Positions 11,935 through 61,475 of a DNA stretch of 64,000 nt are shown here, one piece after another; position 1 is the first letter of the stretch; each line of letters starts with the position of its first letter. Made by a program: the position numbers and the translations under genes. The DNA lies in assembly GCA_051294375.1 (NCBI GenBank), contig CM119265.1, positions 18,896,631 to 18,960,630 of the forward strand, in the 5' to 3' direction. The notes below the pieces were generated by a model. The model had not been told where the DNA came from, did no database searches, and saw only the letters and a list, made by a program, of their open reading frames with translations. The DNA is from Paraspadella gotoi (taxonomy: Eukaryota > Animalia > Chaetognatha).

Positions 11935-12537
11935 TAAGGCGTAGTAAAATTTCTAAATTTAACTTTAATTAAAATTCTAAAAGTGAGGAACGAACAATAT
12001 TATACTAATGAATATTTATGTAATAAAAATTTTTTTAATAAATTTTTAATAATATTTATACTAGAACTAAACCGATAAATGTTAAAATTTCAAAACAGTT
12101 TTTTCTAAGATTTTTTTGCAGATTTTGGATTCGTCATAAAAAGTTGATAAAAGAAAATATATTTTAAATTAAAAATCCTTCATTAAGTTGGTCAAAAAAT
12201 TTAGAAAAAGCTATATTATAAGCTAGAAATTAACTTTTTTATATTATTAATATAGTTTTTTTAATTTTTACCCATTTATATGAAAGAATTTTTAAAATTA
12301 TTTATAATTTTCTTTATCAACTTTTGACGAAGAATTCAAATCTGCAATCAAATAAAGAAAAGCCTATTTTGAAATTTTTTCGATTTTATTAAGGATAGTA
12401 CTATATATATAAATATAGCCTACTGCGATTGAAATTAAAAACTCATAAAATTAATTTTTTTTACAATTAATGTTCATGATGGTATGTTGTTCATTATTAA
12501 CTCTTTAGAATTTTCGTATGTAACTTTCACTACGCTA
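11935..12537. mobile_element. Foldback MITE, probably hAT-like non-autonomous DNA transposon
   Basis: Long degenerate inverted repeats (TAAGGCGTAGT...ACTACGCTA, with internal matching blocks) flanked by the 8-bp direct repeat TTGTCCAC at 11927-11934 and 12538-12545. Confidence 0.75.
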
Positions 12538-15676: not shown

Positions 15677-23307
<7,631 letters not shown>

Positions 23308-23500: not shown

Positions 23501-23736
23501 CGAAGAGACAGTAATTATTGCTATGTGTTAGTGACAGAACCGTTCAATATAAGGAGTCCCTGAGCTTCGGATCAGGCTGTAATACCGTGTTACAGGCGGG
23601 TTAAGCGCCCCGTCCCTCTTAACTGCTAGGCGACCACCGGGCTAGAACCCTGGACCTATGGGTTGAGAGGCAAATGCCTTGCCTCCGGCACCAATGGCCG
23701 CTGATGAACAGTTGGTGGATTTAGGTCTACAATACG
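23501..23736 (-). mobile_element. Solo LTR of the tRNA-containing TRIM at 27321-27980
   Basis: Reverse complement aligns over its whole length with the 27745-27980 repeat; termini read CG...CG rather than TG...CA. Confidence 0.8.
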
Positions 23737-24543: not shown

Positions 24544-26067
24544 ATGCCTTCTCCTCAGTGCCCCGTCTGTTACGAACTTTTCGCCGGTTGGAAAGACGTC
24601 GCCGCCTGTCCCTGCGGACACACCTTTCATTATCACTGCATTCTCCGTTGGAGTGAGGATTGCAAGCGCGCCCGCAAAAAACCGGAGTGTCCAACTTGCA
24701 AAACGACGCTCGATGTCGACAAGCAACCCAAGTGCCTCGTCCCCAAACTGTTCTTTTCCTTCGACGGCGACGGCGCCGAAAAAGAGTGGATCAGTGGCGT
24801 CTCTTCCTCCGCCAACGACTCTGACGTCACCAAATTGCGCGACGATTTAGCTTCAAAGAACGCCTTGACCTATACATTACAGAACCGCGTGACGGCGTTG
24901 GAACGAACGTCGGAGGATTGGCAGAGAAAAATGGTGGAGGAGCAGTTAAAGAGGGAGAAGACGGAGCAGGATCTTCGCGACGAAAGAAGCAAGCGGGATG
25001 CCTTCAAGAGGCAGATGGAAGGGTTCAAGCTGCAGGCCGGCGACGTGAAGAAAGTTCATGCAGAAAACGAGGTTCTCAGAAAAAAGTTGGACGAATGCAG
25101 GACTATTGAAAAGGTGTTGAAAGAATCGACGAACCAGGTAGAAACGGAATTGCTGGATCACGGCCGAAGTGCGGAAGAGTTGGCGAAGTACTTGATTATC
25201 CTTAAGCGGGAGATGGAGCGACACATCGGCGAGAAGCGCAAGTTAAAGGAAGAGGCAAAACGAGCCTCCGAGGAAAACTTTAAGTACGAGAACGAGATCG
25301 ACCGACTAAAGAGAGAGAATGAACTCAGACAAGAAAAGATGACGGAGCTTCGAAAAGACAACGCGGCGTTAATGAGACGAGTCCGTCTGACGCCCTCTTC
25401 CGCCTCAAAACGTCGCCACCCACTCTCGGGCGGGTCGGAAAACGCCGTTAGTCCGCCGTTTGCCCTCGCAAACATTCGGGAAAAACTTGAAGAGGAGCCT
25501 TTGAAGAAGAGAAGAATTTCAGAGGATTTGGACGCGTCCATGGATCTGTTCGGTTCTCCCTCCTGTCCACGAGACCCAGGAATCGTCGTCACTCCTTCGA
25601 TACCCCGCGCCTCCTTCGGCGATTTGTCCCCCTCTTCTCTCGGCGAAGGCATCCTCTCTCAACCCAAACTCGATTCAAAATCGCCTTCCGTTTTCGTTGC
25701 GCGAGACGCTGGCGTTAAATATGTCAAAACGACGACAGACTTCGACTCCATCAGCCGAAAAGCCGCCGAATCGGTCGTGACACCGGAGAGCGTAAAGCCG
25801 ATTAGACGACCCTGCGTCGGGGGTGGCCTTCTGGGTCGCGGCGCTGGAGGCGTCGTTCGGTCAGGATTTAATGCCACTGGAGGCACGAGCAAATTTCTTG
25901 ACATTCGGTCACAGTCGATAGGATCGGGCGCTTCTTGTGGTGGTGGCATTCCTCGTGTTTCCTCCGTCGGTTCGTCATCATCCAAAATTCACAAAAGTAT
26001 TGTGGAGCAGCAGAAGAGAAATAAGTTTGCCAAACACCAGCCCCCGGTCAGCAATTTTTTCGGTTGA
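24544..26067 (+). CDS. TRAIP: E3 ubiquitin ligase TRAIP (RING, coiled coil, C-terminal PIP box); single coding exon
   Basis: 507-aa ORF: N-terminal RING (CPVC...CGHTFHYHCI...CPTC) followed by KLFF, long coiled coil, terminal QPPVSNFF PIP-box-like motif. Confidence 0.85.
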   Translation: MPSPQCPVCYELFAGWKDVAACPCGHTFHYHCILRWSEDCKRARKKPECPTCKTTLDVDKQPKCLVPKLFFSFDGDGAEKEWISGVSSSANDSDVTKLRDDLASKNALTYTLQNRVTALERTSEDWQRKMVEEQLKREKTEQDLRDERSKRDAFKRQMEGFKLQAGDVKKVHAENEVLRKKLDECRTIEKVLKESTNQVETELLDHGRSAEELAKYLIILKREMERHIGEKRKLKEEAKRASEENFKYENEIDRLKRENELRQEKMTELRKDNAALMRRVRLTPSSASKRRHPLSGGSENAVSPPFALANIREKLEEEPLKKRRISEDLDASMDLFGSPSCPRDPGIVVTPSIPRASFGDLSPSSLGEGILSQPKLDSKSPSVFVARDAGVKYVKTTTDFDSISRKAAESVVTPESVKPIRRPCVGGGLLGRGAGGVVRSGFNATGGTSKFLDIRSQSIGSGASCGGGIPRVSSVGSSSSKIHKSIVEQQKRNKFAKHQPPVSNFFG

Positions 26068-26524: not shown

Positions 26525-28992
26525 ATGGAATTCGATTTTGACGTTTGTCGTGTTCTTCCCCATCCCATCACGCTTTTGCATCCTCAGGAATTGAATAGGT
26601 GAGTAACTGGGTCATTCATGTCGTTGATAAAGATGCTTTTACTCATTAAAATTTCTAAATCTTTCTTCAAGAATATCCCAGGATGGTCAATTATCTTTGC
26701 GTGAAATCATTGATACCATGGGACGGCTTTCAGCACGAGCACAGGGGCTTCCTTCTATCATCACTACCCAAGAGAAGTTCCTCTCCTCCACAGACCAAGT
26801 GATTCTTTTGCTGATATCATATATAATTTTAAAAATCATTTATCTGTTCGAGTTGAAATGAACTTGTCGCAATGCCCGACTACAAAACCCGTTTGAAATA
26901 CGGTTATTTCATGCCTATGTTTATTGCTTAGGCTTACCTTGTTCTTAACTTAGTTAGTTGAGGAAAATAATATTACTGTTTTAATATTTAATTGCCGATT
27001 GCTTCCTCCTTGTCAACAGAGATTGTACTTGATGAGAGACAACGACAATCCAGCCCGAGTCAGCGGGCTCCTAAAGATCGGAGAAAAAGATCTCTATCTT
27101 CATGACTGCGACGGAAATTGGACTGAGAAGCTTCGACCACTTTGCGTCCTGGACTTTTATGTTCATGAGAGTCAGCAACGACGGGGTCTTGGTCTCGAGC
27201 TCTTTCTATTTATGCTTAAAGGTAGACGTCCGTAATTTTCTTTTTGCTCTAAAGACAAATATTTGGTTCATCTCGTCTTGACTCTTTACCCTTTTCTTTC
27301 TTTCAAAGTATTTTTTTTCCTTTATGGTGGACTAAAATCCACCAACCGTTCATTCAGTGGCCATTGGTGCCGGAGGCAAGTCATTCGCCTCCCAACCCAA
27401 AGGTCCGGGGTTCTAGCCCGGTGGCCTCCTTGCAGTTAAGAGGGATGGGGCGCTTAACCCGCCTGTAACACGGTGTTACAGCCTGATCCGAAGCTCAGGG
27501 ACTGCTTATATTGAACGGTTCTGTCATTAACACTTATCAATAATTACTGTCTCTTCATTGGTGAGCCCGACTTCCGAACACAACAGCAACAACAACACTT
27601 TCAGGCGACATGCCTCAACCTGGCGATGCACTTTCCACCAACAACACATCAGGCGACATGCCTCAACTTGGTGATGCACTTTCCACCAACAACAACAATT
27701 CACTGAAGAGACAAAACAGACTTCTCCCTATGGGAGGGGGGGGATGTATGGTGGACTAAAATCCACCAACCGTTCATCAGTGGCCATTGGTGCCGGAGGC
27801 AAGTCATTCGCCTCCCAACCCAAAGGTCCAGGGTTCTAGCCCGGTGGCCGCCTAGCAGTTAAGAGGGATGGGGCGCTTAACCCGCCTGTAACATGGTGTT
27901 ACAGCCTGATCCAAAGCTCAGGGACTGCTTATATTGAACGGTTCTGTCATTAACACTTATCAATAATTACTGTCTCTTCAACTGTTTAAATTTTAAAGAC
28001 TATAATCAATTAATAATATTTAACCCTTTCCTTATAAAATTATCAGTGTAATAAAACCTTTTATGTGAAATCTATCATATAAATCTATCATAAATCTATC
28101 ATCTAAATCCTTCATAAAATATAAAAATAGAAAATAGTGAAACAAGTAATTTGCAAATTTTCATTAACCATAAAAATAGGGTTTTGTTATTGGGCTCAAA
28201 TTAAAGCTCTAAGCTTTTTTTTTTCTTAATTTCTACAAATTACATTTTGAAGAACAATTTTCAATGTTTAATTTAAAGGTTAGACATTGTGTCATTTCCC
28301 TCTTTTTGTTGTGTTTGCGATTAGATTAGATTGACGAATGACAATCTCTTAATTTTCTTCAAAATAATACAGATTTAAGATATTTCTAATATTGTATATA
28401 CCTAATCGGCAGCCATTTAAAAATTAAATTTATAAATGATTATTTTGATAAACACCATTTTTTTACAGACATGGCTCCGAATGAATCTCCATTCAACCCT
28501 GATCGCTTCGCCTACGATCGCCCCTCGCCAAAGTTGCTTCAGTTCCTCAAGAAACACTTCGCTCTTCATCCTCCCATCCCCCAGAACAACAACTTCGTCG
28601 TATTCTCGGAATTCTTTAACGCAAATCGGGATTTGGCGAAAGGGCCTCGTCGGTTTAATTACGGAACCGTTTCCGCTTCCAAACCTCTGCCGACGAAAGT
28701 TCGCGACTCACCCCCTCGGGATTTTTTTGTCCAGTCCGTGGAGAAGATGACGATCGCTCGTGACAATGGTTCGGCGACTCGGTGTAATTGGATGCCGGCC
28801 TACAGCAGACACGAATACACCAGTCAGGACAGGTCTTCTCGTAAAGCCGTTCCTCCACTATTTGAATGGAAGGTTCCTTCAACGACCAAATCATCGTTAA
28901 CCCTAAAACCACCCTACGCGTGTCACGATGACGTCGGCAGCGATTGGCGATCCGCCGTTAACAAACGCCATCAACGAACAGCGCTCTGGTAG
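26525..28992 (+). CDS. ATAT1: Alpha-tubulin N-acetyltransferase (MEC-17 family), 4 exons
   Basis: MEFDFDV start; IIDTMGRLSARAQGL; GLLKIGEKDLYLHD; PLCVLDFYVHESQQRRGLG; AYDRPSPKLLQFLKKHF; PQNNNFVVF. Confidence 0.95.
27321..27980 (+). mobile_element. TRIM (miniature non-autonomous LTR retrotransposon) with tRNA-like Pol III promoter in the LTRs, in ATAT1 intron 3
   Basis: Direct repeats 27321-27557 and 27745-27980 (the second is TG...CA); PBS TGGTGAGCCCGAC at 27559-27571; PPT GGGAGGGGGGGGA at 27732-27744; A-box-like TGGTGCCGGAGG and B-box GGTTCTAGCCC in each LTR; no ORF. Confidence 0.85.
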
Positions 28993-54726: not shown

Positions 54727-55417
54727 TTCTTCTCTCTCGTCATCTCTCTCTCTCTCTCTCACACTCACATTTTGGACGTTCCCGTGTTCCTGACTTCCTA
54801 TTATCGCAAACACTAGGGGATGCTGAAAAGCGATTAATGTCCCCGGCGGGGTGCGTGAGGGGGGAATGCACGAAAAAAAAGTAAGGGGGAACCAATGCAC
54901 AGAGTGATAAAGATCTAGGTTAATACCCAGCCAGTGGATCACAATAAAAAAATATTTTATTATTTTTATTATGAATTTTCCTAAATTTACTCGGATCGAA
55001 AACGAAAATGAGAAGGAAAAAGGCCTGTCACGTGCTTCTAAAGTTTTCCAGATTGTATCTACATCATACCTGTAACTTACCCGAAGGTCCTAAAACCATG
55101 AAAGGACTCGTACAAAAATTTAAAATTAAAAAGTCAACTTTATATCTTTGTGATGAAAGTCGTTTAATATCGTATTTCTGGCGAATTTCACTTAAAAATA
55201 AATCAAAGTTGACCTCATAATTAACGCTATCCAACCAACTGCCTCTCAACTGCAATATTTCATCTTTTGTAACCGAAGAATTACCCATCACCCAATGATT
55301 CCAGAGGCATCGTTTTCAATTCGTCATAATTGATTCAAAATTTGTTTGTAAATCATAAAGCTTACTTATACTAACCAATTTTTATTGCGTTTTTCCAAAT
55401 GGAACCGGGATTCTTCT

Positions 55418-55582
55418 GGCTCCTTCTCACCACTGTAGTTTGCTCTTTTGTTCCAGATGTCGTGTTGTCCACAGAAAGGGACAAAAGAAAAAACGGAAAA
55501 GCAGGACTCCTCCTGCTCTTCCTCCTCCTCCTCTTCCTCCTCTCAGATACTAGCTCAGGGAAAGCGAACGCCACGAAATCAC
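55418..55582. repeat. DIRS inverted terminal repeat (left)
   Basis: Reverse complement of 60420-60581 with small indels (e.g. CTCAGATACTAGCTCAG / CTGAGCTAGTATCTGAG). Confidence 0.9.
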
Positions 55583-58500
55583 TCAGTCCACAAGACCATC
55601 TGAGAGAGACTCCACGCCGACTCCCGACAGTAGAAACGGAAGAAGGTCTGTCTCCAGACCAATCCCTGCAGTAAATATACGTCCAGAATCCACGCCCTTG
55701 GCAAAAAGCTTCCGATACAGCCATGCAGACCGTGTCGAGCAGGTGGGCGCGTCGTCGATGTCCGCATCTCCAAGATCGACTTGAGAATCGATGAAAAAGT
55801 TGGAGAGATAATGGACCATAAGGAGGCGTTGGAGAAGTAAAGAGGAAATCGTGGTTGAGGTCGCAAATCCTGACGAACACGAAGCCAAAAAACCAAAGCA
55901 GAGACTGGCAACGACTTGAGCCATGCAGTCTATCAAACGAAAAGCAGGACCAAGACGACGAAACTATCAGTCTTGGACAGTTGAGAAGGCACAAAACGAA
56001 CGTTGGTCAGCAGCCAAATCCATGGTGACAGGTCCACAACGAAGCGAAAGCCAAACTCTGAAGGCCTTCTTGCAGAGGCCATGCAAGGAGGAAAATGTTA
56101 CTCCTCAAACAATGAGCCGGAGAAAAGGTAGAGGCGAAGTATCAAAAACTCGCAGAACTGCGGCGACACTCAAGCCGGGGAACATCCTGCGCGAAGGAGG
56201 GCGTTTTGGAAGACACCCTTCAGCAAACGGCAGACCAAAGATGTTGACCCACTGGAGAACCATCCACATAGGCAAAGTAGCGGAGATAGCCGATCTGTGC
56301 AAAATTCACTGTGCTGTTAAGACAGACCGTCGCGCTGAGATGGGGGAGATACTCGAGAACGTCCTTCAAAGCGGCCTGATGTCCTCGAAGGCCCCTACGC
56401 TGAAGGAAGGAGTCAAAAACATCGCCAGACCCTGTCGTAACGGCATCCTGTAGATCCCTCCAGCTGTCGGAGATTAGGAAAAAGCTGAGTTGTTGAGGTC
56501 TTGGAGACCGTGCGCCCTCCTATAATCCTCAGACGACCAACTTGAGGCGATCCGAGAGCTTGGGAGGAGCGTCCGTGGCTTTGTCCAACACCAATCGACG
56601 AGACCACGGGAGACGAAGAACTCCAACACCCGAAGAGTCAACAACAACGGGAACCATTTTCTGGCTGGCCAAAAGGGCGTCACCAGAAGAAAATTCCCCT
56701 TGGCCTCCTCAACTTGAGGATCACCTTCGGATCAAGGGAGAGGGGGAAACACGTAAGCCTGTCGAAAATCCAAACTTGACTGAGGGCATCCAGTCCGAGA
56801 ATCCTCTCCATCTTCCAAGAGAAGTAGCGAGGAACTTGACGGAGGAGACGCCGTCGCAAACAGATCTATCTGGGGCAAACCCAGACGCGTCGAAATCCGT
56901 CGAAAAACTTGGGGAGAGAGATGCCAATCCTGAAACGCTCTTCGCGTGATGCTGCATCCGCGATCAAATTCTCCTCCGATGAAATGTGCGTCCCCACAAT
57001 TGTGATCTGCAGAGACTGAGCCAGAAGGAGAGAAATCCTGACAACTTCGTGAAGATCCTGTGAGCGGCTGCAGGAGCGGCGGAGACAAACCAGAGACACT
57101 AAGCTGTCGGTCTTCCACAAAAGATTGCGCCTGGATCTGCTGACCGAAGGAACGCAGACTGAGCAGGACCATGAACTCCTTCACAGTTATATGGAGATGG
57201 GCATCCACAACTTCCCAAATCCCCGGTGAAGAGCCCCGCGAAACAGGAAGCCCCAACCCTCCTGGGAGCATCCGTCGTCACTTCCGCCGTGCAAGAATCC
57301 GGGAGAACATCGGCGATCGGACAAAGCCATCCTGGATCTCGAGCTTTGACATCCAACGTAGCTCCACTCTCGCCGGCCTCCGAAAGAAGACTGTCTTCCC
57401 CAGGATCCTTCTCCGTGGAGTAGACACGATTGACGTCGCGTTGAATCCTTGCCCTCTGCAAACGAATGAGCGGGACTGCCAAAGAGGCTGCGGTCGCAAG
57501 ACCCAGCAGGCGAAAACCTGAAAGGGCTGATGGAGTGGGCCTCTAGCAGGAGAGAGGTCGGCCATCTCCGCGAAAAGTGACAAAATCTTCGTCCAAGGGA
57601 GCGCAACTCGATGAAGCGCCCCCCGTCCCATTGGAGACCCAAGAACTGAAAGACTTGCGTCGGAACCAAGACTGACTTCTTGGGATGATGAGAAACCCGC
57701 ATCCTTCAAGAGTCGAAGAGCTGTGAGAGTGTTCACCAGACACTCCTCTGCGAGGTCCCAGTATCAGAATATCGTCTATGTAGAAAAGGCACTGATGCCC
57801 TCTTGCGGAGCCAGGCGACTAACGGGCGTGTCGTCTTGGTGAAACAGCCAAGGACCGGTTCAGCCAAACCGAAAGGAAGGACTTTGTACTGATTAAACGC
57901 GCCCTCTCCAAATGAAACCGACAAACTTGCGATGATCCACATGAAGAGGCAAGTGGAGATAGGCGTCGCGAAGATCGATAGACGACGCCCAGTCCCCCGG
58001 AAAGAACCATTCTTCCGATACATTCTTGACAACCTTCCATCCGGAAGTAAGGAGGGACAATGAAGGACTTGTTGAGCTTCTTCAAATTTAGAATTGGCCT
58101 CCATCCCCCATCTTTTTTGGGAACCAGAAAAATCTTGGAATAAATAACCCCGGAGAAAGCTCCACCTCCTCCACGGCGCCCTTTCCAAAGCTGCCGCTAT
58201 CTCGTTCGTCGATGAGAGAGTCCCTGTCCCCAAAAGAAGGGGTCTCGTCCGAAGGGAGAGGCATCCTGGTAGGGATCCTGTTTGCTCCTGCAATGAGGAA
58301 CCCTTCCACGTTTTGTAGAATAGGAGAATCCTGTCCGACCAAATCCGCCCAAACGGGGACGAAGTGTTGCAAACGCCCTCCCACCGGGAAGGTGGAAGAC
58401 GGGCCGGAGAAGACAAAATCGAGTCCTGGACAGATCCATGGTCTTGATGTCCAAAGTGGCCGGGCGACGGCCGAGGCGGCGAAAGGAGTCATTTGGGAGT

Positions 58501-59595
58501 CCTTCGACGCGCCCATCCCCCCTTCCCGAACGCCTAAAAGGGACGCGGACTTGCGATAAGGCTTGTAGGAACCCCTGGACTTAGCAAAAACTTCTTCCGC
58601 GGAGCTGCATTATTTTCTGGGGCGAAAACGCTTGAGCCTTGAAAAGAGAGGAATGGATAGCCGCAGAAACCTCCGTTCGACGATTCCAAAATAAAAATCC
58701 ACAGAAGGAGGGGAATCCGTCAGTTTAGCTTTAAGCTCCTTCGGAGAAGACTGCACTACCAGACGTCGAGATTCAGCCAAAGCTGAATTAAAAAGAAACG
58801 CCGACATTGAAGCTGCATTCCTTGAAGTGGAGCACCAAAGTCTCCAAATCCAAAATAAGTTCGGGATCTGCGCCGAAGCTTTGAGAGACGCAATTGATAA
58901 TACTTGAGGCCTTCTGCAGTGTGAAGGACAGAATGAGCACGGCCCCTGCATCTCTCATAGAGCGAGTGAGCTGCTTGAAAAAGAGCAGCCGATTTTGCGA
59001 TCCTTGGAAACGGCATCAAATTGTGCAGAGACACAAGTATCCTTCATGGGAGGTCCAAAGACAGCAGGGGAAGATCCATCAACCCATCGAGCATAAATAG
59101 ATCTGCCTGTGACCGGGCTCCCCAACCCTTGGCGAGCGTCCGGAGAACAACAGAACGCAGCTCCTTCCATGCTGACACATCCCACTCCGAAGGAACTGAT
59201 GCAGTCTTGCGTTTGGAATAAAGTCTCAAATCCCACTGGAGCATCAGAAGTGGAAGAGAGTTCGCCTTCCTCCGAACCAGATGAATCATCGTCCGGTGCA
59301 ATGGCATTTGCAGAAGTAGATTGAGACGAACTAACTCATATCCGACTTAGGAAGAGCCGGGTTAGCATGACAAGTCCTTTGGCGCAGAAGCGCGGACTTG
59401 ATCACTGGAAACGAATCAGCAGCAGCAGTAGAAGGTTGATGCGGAGACAAAAGTGAAATTCCAGGAGCCATGAACATCGTACATGAAAAGGAAAAAGAAA
59501 AAATTGATTAGAATAAGCGCAAACCAAAAAGACAAAAACCCGAAGCCGCCCTTCCACCACCGGTGGTTTGCCAGGGGTGGACGGCGGGAGACCAC

Positions 59596-59678
59596 GTGGG
59601 GAGAGGAGCCATGAAGAATCCGGTTCCATTTGGAACCATAAAATTCTATTCATGTCGCTCCTCTCCACCACGTAGTTG
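59596..59678. other. DIRS internal complementary region (ICR)
   Basis: 59596-59635 is complementary to the left terminus (55393-55433) and 59640-59678 to the right terminus (60560-60596), i.e. the reverse complement of the circle junction. Confidence 0.88.
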
Positions 59679-60419
59679 CTCCAATAACAAGAGCGGCCGA
59701 GGATAAAAACAAAGAAACAAGACAAAGTCGAATTGGTGAGACGAAAATAATCGAAAAAATTTCACTAATGTATGCCAAAAAGGCAAAAATCACAAATAAA
59801 AGAACATCAACTCACCGTTGCCACGAAGCCATATCCGATCGCAAGGAACGTTGAAACTCCTCCCACTGCTGCTGAAAGAAGGCGGAAGCCCTCCTGTATT
59901 ATGCCAAGTGATTCGTTTCACGCTAAGAGCCGAGTCCTTAGTAGGCGAATGCCACCACGTCTCTCCCTACCACCATACGCCGATAGAATAAGTCGGTGCA
60001 CCCCGGCCTCGAGCCCACCAGGGAAAGAACCCAGCGGGCGGGGGTCGCGGACCTCGGCGGCGCCCTAGCGGCATGTCCACCGCGGGAGAAACAGAGGCCG
60101 TTACGGGAGGTGGAGGAGGCGGAGACAGGCCCCTAAAACGTCGCGGCGGCTCCGGAGTCAGACCCATTCCGGCCCGCTCGCCTCGCTTTTGACCGCTTTT
60201 TACGCGGGCTCGATTTCGTTTGCGAGACTCGGACATCTTAGCACATAAACCGAAAACGACTTCGAGATTCACCCCAAAACTGAATCGAAACAACTCTCGG
60301 AAGGGAAAAAAGAATTTCCGTATATCAAATTATTTTCCAAAAAAATAATGCGAAAAAAATTTTCAAAAATTTCAAAAATATTCAAAAATCTGTGAACGAC
60401 AAGTCGTGAACAAAAAAAA

Positions 60420-60581
60420 GTGATTTCGTGGCGTTCGCTTTTCACTGAGCTAGTATCTGAGAGGGAAGGAGGAGGAGGCAGGAGAGGCAGGAGGATCCTG
60501 CTTTTCCGTTTTTCTTTTGTCCTTTCTTGTGGACAACACGACATCTGGAACAAAAGAACAAACTACGTGGTGTGAGAGGGC
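60420..60581. repeat. DIRS inverted terminal repeat (right)
   Basis: Reverse complement of 55418-55582. Confidence 0.9.
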
Positions 60582-60917
60582 GACATGATAGAATTTGTGC
60601 CTGTTTGAGAAAGCGAAAGTGACCCATCCCCTTGATTGAATCGACCAATGTTAACTTTATGACAATGGATCAAAAGAGATGTGGCCGCCTAATCGTGCGC
60701 CGCTTTCCGGAAAACGCTGCCGAGCGAAAAGATTCTCCTCAATGTGATATTGTGAACTTTCCCTTCCGTCCTCGTTCTTCGCCGTGGCTCGGCAGCGCCG
60801 AAGCGGGGAGGCGATCGAGTGACATCTGGATCGGACACCAGCGGCGCCAAAAGCCGTTAGGGTGTCACCAAATTTGTAGTTTCGATCGCAGGCGGGGACC
60901 TGGCTCGAAAAATCCGA

Positions 60918-60963
60918 CTCTCTCTCTTCTCTCTCTCTTCTCTCTCTCTTCTCTCTTCTCTCT

Positions 60964-61005
<42 letters not shown>

Positions 61006-61054
61006 ATTTTAGATGTAATTTTAAATTCGGAAAAAGTCGAAAAAAGCCTGCAAT

Positions 61055-61118
<64 letters not shown>

Positions 61119-61186
61119 TTCCTGTATTTAGAATAGATGTAATTTTAAATTCGGAAAAAGTAAAAAAAAAAGCCTGCAATTGCTCT

Positions 61187-61220
<34 letters not shown>

Positions 61221-61225
61221 TTTCT

Positions 61226-61261
<36 letters not shown>

Positions 61262-61319
61262 GTATTTTAGAATAGATGTAATTTTAAATTCGGAAAAAGT
61301 CGAAAAAAAGCCTGCAATT

Positions 61320-61406
<87 letters not shown>

Positions 61407-61475
61407 TCCTGTATTTTATTATAGATGTAATTTTAAATTCGAGGAAAAAGCGGCAAAAGCCCTGCTATTGCTCTC
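60918..61475. repeat. Compound minisatellite: four units of (CT)n plus a ~60-bp core
   Basis: Core CCTGTATTTTAGAATAGATGTAATTTTAAATTCGGAAAAAGTCGAAAAAAAGCCTGCAATTG recurs (with variants) between (CT)n tracts. Confidence 0.9.

What the first reader, a model, noticed from the sequence alone, without database searches (positions are those of the whole stretch)
27321..27980. Miniature LTR retroelement with tRNA-derived Pol III boxes in its LTRs and a tRNA-Trp primer site
Seen: two ~236-bp direct repeats around a 187-bp non-coding core; TGG-starting PBS 1 nt after the first repeat; 13-nt purine tract abutting the TG of the second; each repeat holds a tRNA-like segment (GGCCA...TGGCC closing stem, A-box-like and B-box GGTTCTAGCCC). 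Known: TGGTGACCCCGAC is complementary to the 3' end of animal tRNA-Trp (12/13 match here); Cassandra TRIMs carry 5S-derived LTR promoters and, from memory, Helenus TRIMs carry tRNA-like ones. Inference: a Pol III-driven TRIM family parasitising an autonomous LTR element, likely unannotated in this lineage and easily mis-called as a SINE dimer. No TSD is visible and the 5' LTR starts TT.
Basis: partly seen in the sequence, partly recalled or inferred. Interest (0 to 1): 0.8.

Follow-up and report, generated by a model that had tools for sequence, protein, structure and literature searches.

The report
Helenus-type mini LTR retrotransposon, TA-ended
This is a real, gene-less, multi-copy jumping element with a decayed tRNA look-alike in each terminal repeat, likely a new family of the 'Helenus' kind described in 2024; its one oddity is that inserted copies begin two letters inside the usual TG end.

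Summary
Contigs of six public runs show a multi-copy family with sharp ends at both LTR borders and recurring LTR-PBS and PPT-LTR joints, so it is an LTR element and not a SINE dimer. Inserted copies start at TA (27323/27747), not TG: 141 of 192 listed left junctions in run X2 stop at TA, 13 reach TG, no more than flank chance. Flank majorities mirror each other (ATAT/CTAG-like), and one contig reads LTR-CTAG-LTR, pointing to a 4-bp duplication; but neither window locus (full element; solo LTR at 23501-23734) has a TSD. The PBS fits tRNA-Trp (12/13 bee, 13/13 natural variants). The tRNA-like segment is real but decayed: top three hits of a tRNA model in 64 kb, 12-16 bits, A box poor, no ARAGORN or Rfam call. 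Pol III use and the helper are untested. It fits Helenus (Kojima 2024), where 8 of 234 LTR records also start TA. The host is an animal I could not place. The scan has noted this kind before in at least 13 other genomes. New member of a known kind.

The parts
27323..27557 (+). 5' LTR (235 bp), TA...CA
   Evidence: left border from loose ends; right border 27557 from 172/107/124/41 loose ends in X2/X5/X6/X9
27357..27428 (+). tRNA-like segment of LTR1: acceptor-like stem, T-arm-like hairpin with B-box-like motif at 27409-27419, decayed D and anticodon arms
   Evidence: tRNA model hit 11.6 bits, E 0.93; fold z -2.13; motif scan
27559..27571 (+). primer-binding site for tRNA-Trp, 1 base after the LTR
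   Evidence: 12/13 to bee tRNA-Trp in Fig. S2 of PMC10886601; 13/13 to tRNA-Trp(CCA) genes in 4 of 4 metagenome loci
27558..27746 (+). non-coding core (189 bp)
   Evidence: deep cover in every run laid
27590..27694 (+). 48-bp unit, 2.2 copies, inside the core
27732..27744 (+). polypurine tract (13 nt)
   Evidence: sequence; joint PPT-ATG-LTR in 4 contigs of X2 and 3 of X5
27745..27746 (+). TG between PPT and LTR; present at the inner joint, absent from genomic left junctions; inferred to be the trimmed 2-nt end of the cDNA
27747..27980 (+). 3' LTR (234 bp), TA...CA
27780..27851 (+). tRNA-like segment of LTR2, B-box-like motif at 27832-27842
   Evidence: best tRNA-model hit in the window, 15.8 bits, E 0.081; fold z -3.15
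23501..23734 (-). solo LTR of the same family, starts TA, last base changed, no TSD
   Evidence: tRNA-model hit 13.6 bits
27020..27221 (+). host exon upstream (Mec-17/ATAT1-type acetyltransferase, profile positions 59-128)
   Evidence: PF05301 E 7.8e-23
28471..28617 (+). next host exon, start approximate (profile positions 129-173): the element sits in the intron between the two
   Evidence: PF05301 E 1.5e-14

Best explanation
This is a 658-bp, non-coding, multi-copy LTR retrotransposon (TRIM) with a decayed tRNA-like segment in each LTR and TA...CA ends, likely transcribed by RNA polymerase III from that segment and likely copied and inserted by the enzymes of an autonomous Gypsy-type element not seen here. 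Shown: the anatomy, the many loci, the recurring inner joints, the TA start. Inferred steps: (1) the B box, with a weak A box about 45 bases upstream, starts a transcript near 27357; there is no T4 run on this strand, so it would run through the core and LTR2 and stop in the flank or at a weak signal; (2) a helper particle packages it and host tRNA-Trp primes at the PBS; (3) RNase H cuts at the end of the 13-nt purine tract, so the linear DNA begins TG-TA; (4) integrase trims two bases at each end (recalled for retroviruses and Ty3) and joins TA...CA ends into an ATAT/CTAG-like site with a 4-bp stagger; (5) LTR-LTR recombination leaves solo LTRs, and later recombination or deletion at the edges has removed the TSD of the two window copies.
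For: Many loci with sharp ends: in X2, 192 listed left-junction contigs and 152 right-junction contigs with long unrelated flanks (172 right), the same borders in X5, X6, X7, X8, X9. LTR-to-PBS joint in 13/5/4 contigs of X2/X7/X8; PPT-ATG-LTR joint in 4 and 3 contigs of X2 and X5. TA start: 141/38/13 ends at 27747/27746/27745 in X2, 79/26/7 in X8, 54/14/not listed in X7; TG share 13 of 192 and 7 of 112, no excess over flank chance (Fisher p 0.20). Majority letters left of TA end ATAT, ATTT, ATAT; right of CA they start CTAT/CTAG/CTAT or ATAT; one X2 record joins LTR end to LTR start across exactly CTAG. ATAT-rich 4-bp TSDs are reported for the Gypsy element Spoink and the ant PbTRIM, 4-bp TSDs and Gypsy-like PBSs for animal Helenus. 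PBS fits tRNA-Trp. The three LTR copies are the top three of 13 hits of a tRNA covariance model over 64 kb, on the sense strand; the B-box-like motif occurs 3 times in the window, all in these copies; 33 of 36 cells of the acceptor and T stems pair.
Against: 0 of 2 window loci have a TSD (full: CCTT/ACTG; solo: GCCG/AGCG), and no tool printed both flanks of any other locus, so the duplication is inferred from majorities (about 0.4 agreement over 30 letters) and one contig. tRNA likeness is weak: 11.6-15.8 bits, rough E 0.08-0.93, the three copies are one family and so one observation; ARAGORN 0 genes; no Rfam tRNA hit at E up to 10; best alignment to 38 real tRNAs is reached by 2, 14 and 21 of 300 shuffles; D arm not aligned; A box matches TRGCY at 3 of 5 places; no pair changes on both sides in three copies. 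No transcript start, no helper, no host tRNA seen. The absence of T4 is not informative (437 of 2000 shuffles also lack it). No listed contig covers 28013-28082, so the right junction of this copy is not independently confirmed.
Confidence: 0.8

Rival explanations
1. Ordinary Pol II TRIM: the element is as described, but the tRNA-like segment is a dead relic of a SINE insertion, or a structural R-region hairpin, and does not drive transcription.
For: Weak A box, B box with one change from the usual consensus, T loop shifted by one base, no tRNA call; a TATA-like run at about 27506 in the LTR (sequence). Pol III use is unproven for all Helenus.
Against: Segment kept at full tRNA length with both stems paired in most copies; no variant at 3% or more listed inside the B-box-like motif; no AATAAA, ATTAAA or TATAWA on the sense strand.
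Confidence: 0.3
2. The family inserts without a target duplication (integrase-independent capture or a tyrosine-recombinase helper), at AT-rich sites.
For: 0 of 2 window loci have a TSD; a decayed element recalled as DIRS-like lies at about 55.4-60.6 kb (motif resemblance only; Pfam gave no hit).
Against: Sharp ends at both borders with mirrored 4-letter flank majorities, LTR-CTAG-LTR contig; PBS and PPT are kept.
Confidence: 0.07
3. A tRNA-derived SINE that here forms a dimer.
For: tRNA-like head; single units exist (solo copy); no TSD of LTR type in the window.
Against: The unit starts 34 bases before the tRNA-like segment, ends sharply at CA with no tail, and its joints to PBS and PPT recur in all DNA runs where listed.
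Confidence: 0.02
4. The TA end arises differently: RNase H cuts after the TG, and the U3 end is joined untrimmed (a usual TG follows two bases further in, at 27749).
For: Several bivalve Helenus have PPT-TA-TG at this joint, the same letters as 27747-27750.
Against: The purine tract ends at 27744; the right end shows no extra T in flanks, so the two ends would be treated unequally.
Confidence: 0.2

Closest known systems
Helenus (TRIMp3), Kojima 2024, PMC10886601 (read: main text parts 1-5 of 6; supplement parts 1, 6, 10, 11 of 11, and four term searches of the whole supplement)
   Same: Non-coding, 311-1263 bp range (here 658), two LTRs each with a tRNA-like segment, GGTTC in box B, PBS for the 3' end of a tRNA, PPT, solo LTRs, likely 4-bp TSD as in animals. 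Helenus-2_SyJa also uses tRNA-Trp with a 13-nt match one base after the LTR. 8 of 234 LTR records start TA, 5 of them in wasps.
   Different: No sequence tie found (four family motifs absent from the file; no alignment was run). A box more decayed than the TRGCY..YGG of most Helenus. In the 8 TA-start records no TG stands before the TA in the 7 whose core end is shown, so TA replaces TG; here TG is kept between PPT and TA. Host not placed in any of the six animal phyla listed.
PbTRIM of harvester ants, PMC3532108 (passages read)
   Same: Animal TRIM of 480-781 bp, 4-bp TSD with ATAT most common, often in or near genes, many solo LTRs.
   Different: tRNA-Leu primer; no small-RNA segment mentioned in the passages read.
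TARE1 (tomato Copia, TA...CA), PMC3701649, and Spoink (Drosophila Gypsy/mdg3, TG...TA, ATAT 4-bp sites), PMC10965091 (passages read)
   Same: One end offers TA in place of CA to integrase and the family still amplifies; Spoink also has the ATAT 4-bp target.
   Different: Both are autonomous. TARE1 arose by a G-to-A change of TG; Spoink's odd end is on the PBS side. Here the TG survives and the inserted end lies two bases inside it.
Cassandra TRIMs (as described in PMC10886601; primary paper not read)
   Same: Small-RNA-derived internal promoter in each LTR; the only validated Pol III TRIM.
   Different: 5S-derived, plants, terminator inside the LTR; no T4 run here.

Membership tests
TRIM | Under 1 kb, no coding capacity | tested here: met
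   658 bp; longest ATG-started frame 49 aa, longest stop-free frame 66 aa
TRIM | Two LTRs around a core with PBS and PPT | tested here: met
   joints recur
TRIM | Dispersed copies with fixed ends, solo LTRs | tested here: met
   192 left and 152-172 right junction contigs in X2; same borders in five more runs; solo LTR at 23501-23734
TRIM / animal Helenus | Target-site duplication (4 bp in animal Helenus) | tested here: inconclusive
   Absent at 2 of 2 window loci; mirrored flank majorities and one LTR-CTAG-LTR contig favour 4 bp; both flanks of other loci could not be read
TRIM / Helenus | TG...CA ends (usual, not required: 226 of 234 records start TG, 8 TA) | tested here: not met
   Inserted ends are TA...CA; within the range of the family
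Helenus | tRNA-like sequence inside the LTR | tested here: met
   Top three hits of a 29-tRNA model in 64 kb, full length, sense strand, but only 11.6-15.8 bits; stems pair in 33 of 36 cells; ARAGORN and Rfam tRNA negative
Helenus | Box B with GGTTC | tested here: met
   Present in all three copies and nowhere else in the window as GGTTCNANYCC
Helenus | Box A with TRGCY and YGG | tested here: inconclusive
   3 of 5 of the first motif, YGG present, at tRNA-like distance from box B (sequence); D arm not aligned
Helenus | PBS for the 3' end of a host tRNA, unrelated to the LTR's own tRNA-like part | tested here: met
   tRNA-Trp, 12/13 and 13/13; host's own tRNA-Trp not seen
TRIMp3 | Transcription by RNA polymerase III | not testable with these tools
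   Only contigs available; they show no starts or strand
animal Helenus | Autonomous Gypsy partner with a like PBS | not testable with these tools
   No genome held; none found in the window
tRNA-derived SINE | 5' end at the tRNA head, variable tail, no PBS/PPT core | tested here: not met

The most novel reading that the evidence does not exclude
A Helenus-type Pol III TRIM in an animal phylum where none is known, whose inserted U3 end has slipped two bases inside a still-present TG: the parasite's purine tract and its helper's integrase are out of register, yet it has reached hundreds of loci. It would be a natural test of how loosely a Gypsy integrase reads its attachment site and of how small-RNA TRIMs switch helpers.
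Probability: 0.35. Interest if true: 0.55.

Novelty: new member of a known kind. Interest (0 to 1): 0.36.

Why it matters
It extends a class described only in 2024 to a further, poorly sampled animal lineage and gives a high-copy family in which the open question for the whole class, whether the tRNA-like LTR segment really drives Pol III transcription, could be tested. The TA start means TG..CA-based LTR finders and hand annotation set the border wrong and miss the target site. It is not a new kind of element.

Tried and rejected
No own genome held, so no genome-wide copy or TSD count. ARAGORN: 0 tRNAs in the window. Rfam: no tRNA hit on 901 or 96 bases at E up to 10; only a 13-bit, E 2.2 match to the tRNA-like mascRNA family. 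A 23-nt LTR motif: 0 matches in metagenome and viral contigs. LTR segment against phage records: chance matches only. Expression: no RNA holder listed; X9 is only guessed to be RNA, its single-copy cover is exon-only and it holds 976 family contigs, but contigs show no start, strand or level, so nothing is concluded. Summed depth is no copy number and was not used as one. Host placement: the RING protein has only two unnamed relatives (60% and 54%); the VWA exon is 36-49% identical to sponge, placozoan, rotifer, flatworm and chordate proteins alike; a 19-row tree (18 of the 27 hits) left it on a long, unsupported branch. Inversion between the solo LTR and LTR1 as the cause of the missing TSDs: swapping flanks gives no match. 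Mis-join of the assembly or a translocation: unlikely, the flanking exons are consecutive in one profile. Chimaeric LTR pair: 3 of 6 LTR differences are at sites polymorphic in the family, but all three are CpG-type, so undecided. No empty-site allele seen: X2, X5, X6 all carry the left junction. One search used a misplaced structure and is void; one search replaces it. Element sequence against the scan's earlier notes: nothing. Literature searches for later reports of such TRIMs in other animals listed none beyond the 2024 paper; subscription journals and Repbase/Dfam were not searchable.

Full report
OBSERVATION. The window holds two direct repeats around a short core at the stated place. 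They differ at 6 of 235 columns. A 13-nt primer-like site starts one base after the first repeat's CA; it occurs once in the window, and 3 of 100 shuffles give a match. A 13-nt purine tract (27732-27744) is followed by TG and then the second repeat. The core holds a 48-bp unit 2.2 times and the element codes for nothing (longest ATG-started frame 49 aa). The element sits in an intron between two consecutive exons of a Mec-17/ATAT1-type gene (profile positions 59-128 and 129-173).

IT IS A MULTI-COPY LTR FAMILY. No genome is held, so I laid the contigs of 6 of the 9 holding runs on two stretches with one LTR each. 12468, 2539, 2933 and 976 contigs of X2, X5, X6, X9 lay on flank+LTR1+core, and 13669, 2282, 2891 of X2, X7, X8 on core+LTR2+flank. 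Contigs leave the LTR at sharp places into long, unrelated, AT-rich flanks: 172, 107, 124 and 41 at the CA end 27557. The LTR-to-PBS joint is seen in 13, 5 and 4 contigs, the PPT-ATG-LTR joint in 4 contigs of X2 and 3 of X5. About 150-190 distinct junction contigs per end in one sample put the family at well over a hundred loci (alleles may count twice; short contigs are missed; the tables are cut). A SINE would show neither fixed 3' ends nor the recurring core, so that rival falls.

THE INSERTED END IS TA, NOT TG. With a reference that has ATG before TA, left-end junctions fall at 27747/27746/27745 in 141/38/13 contigs of X2, 79/26/7 of X8 and 54/14/not listed of X7 (633 weaker rows not shown). 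So 13 of 192 and 7 of 112 reach the TG, which is what flank letters give by chance (T two bases out in 13 of 51 after G, 35 of 97 after T; Fisher p 0.20). Both window copies that lack TG start at this TA. The borders are thus LTR1 27323-27557, core 27558-27746, LTR2 27747-27980. The simplest reading (inferred): RNase H cuts at the end of the purine tract, as in Ty3 (passages of PMC5371799), the cDNA begins TG-TA, and integrase removes two bases (recalled); at the other end one T lies between CA and the PBS. A rival is an untrimmed TA before a TG at 27749. TA...CA ends are known: tomato TARE1, the mirror case Spoink, and 8 of 234 LTR records in the Helenus/Ajax file, 5 from wasps. In the 7 of those 8 whose core end is shown, no TG precedes the TA; here it does.

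TARGET SITE. Majority letters left of TA end in ATAT, ATTT, ATAT (X2, X7, X8); right of CA they begin CTAT, CTAG, CTAT in the class not starting with A and ATAT in the class that does; one X2 record (depth 104.5) joins an LTR end to an LTR start across exactly CTAG; LTR-LTR joints also show in 2 and 1 contigs, letters not given. This fits a 4-bp duplication with an ATAT/CTAG-like preference, as for animal Helenus, PbTRIM and the Gypsy element Spoink. Against: 0 of 2 window loci have a TSD (CCTT/ACTG; GCCG/AGCG; none of 3-6 bp at offsets 0-3); flank majorities agree at only about 0.4; no listed contig covers 28013-28082, so this copy's right junction is unconfirmed (a hole proves nothing). The left junction is carried by X2, X5 and X6 with no differences.

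PRIMER. The site matches the 3' end of bee tRNA-Trp at 12 of 13 (Fig. S2 of PMC10886601); Helenus-2_SyJa has the same layout. A metagenome scan for genes ending in the exact complement gave 4 loci, 4 of 4 called tRNA-Trp(CCA); the pattern held a Trp-type T arm, so this shows that such a variant exists, not that other isotypes are excluded, and the host's own tRNA was not seen.

tRNA-LIKE SEGMENT. ARAGORN finds nothing; Rfam gives no tRNA hit. A covariance model from 29 of 38 fetched tRNAs (23 E. coli, 6 eukaryote-type; left out: 6 with long variable arms, 1 with an intron, 2 near-duplicates) ranks the three LTR copies first, second and third of 13 hits in 64 kb, full length and on the element's sense strand, at 15.8, 13.6 and 11.6 bits (rough E 0.081, 0.29, 0.93; next hit 11.2 bits, a fragment). 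The copies are one family, so this is one observation. A 7-bp acceptor-like stem and a 5-bp T stem pair in 33 of 36 cells, with no change on both sides; at the window's breaks most copies in the runs carry the pairing letter. Fold z-scores are -3.15 and -2.13 for the segment and -0.54 for the rest of the LTR, but the lowest-energy fold is a three-way junction, not a cloverleaf. The B-box-like motif occurs 3 times in the window, all in these copies. The A box is poor, the D arm is not aligned, and plain alignment to real tRNAs is marginal (2, 14, 21 of 300 shuffles as good). A likeness to tRNA-Gly/Asp-type and SINE heads is recalled, not tested. Verdict: tRNA-derived, decayed, not a working tRNA; promoter use untested. 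No T4 run lies on the sense strand, but 437 of 2000 shuffles lack one too.

HOST. An animal by its genes, with no close named relative; a one-exon tree does not place it. Whether it lies outside the six phyla listed for Helenus is open; identities of at most 49% to vertebrate proteins make a vertebrate unlikely.

COMPARISON AND VERDICT. By the definition in PMC10886601 (TRIM under about 1 kb with a tRNA-derived LTR sequence, PBS and PPT) this is a Helenus-type element; the TSD test is inconclusive, Pol III and helper tests could not be run. No sequence tie to a listed family was found by short motif searches; I saw 4 of 11 supplement parts directly. A 2026 meeting report still cites only that paper (passages); searches listed no later animal report. 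The scan's earlier notes list 31 such findings in at least 13 genomes (unchecked, not used as support). New member of a known kind, with a small mechanistic twist at the U3 end. Interest 0.36.

Noticed in passing
window 28103-28164: A second, short high-copy repeat fragment just downstream of the element, with a sharp end at 28164 (40 loose ends in X2) and deep cover in all three runs; not identified.
   Followed up: no
window about 55400-60600, minus strand: Decayed element with broken reverse-transcriptase-like frames (motifs recalled as DIRS-like) and 160-bp inverted repeats at 55425-55583 / 60419-60575; Pfam gave no hit on ten frames tried there.
   Followed up: partly
window 21481-21669: 189-bp near-perfect palindrome (96% to its own reverse complement); a MITE-like foldback is possible.
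   Followed up: no
window 11971-12514: About 540-bp imperfect palindrome (69%).
   Followed up: no
window 60919-61475: Tandem array with a period near 125-130 bp.
   Followed up: no
window 24544-26067: Intronless 507-aa RING and coiled-coil gene, recalled as TRAIP-like, whose only relatives found are two unnamed proteins at 60% and 54%.
   Followed up: partly
window 27325-27344 and 27749-27768; 27464-27480; 27721-27739: Further hairpins in the element: a 7-bp stem at the very start of each LTR, a 7-bp stem in the LTR middle, and a stem that folds over the purine tract.
   Followed up: partly
L003 and L004: Two metagenome contigs share a cluster of eukaryote-type tRNA-Leu, -Asn, -Trp, -Asp genes in the same order.
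   Followed up: no
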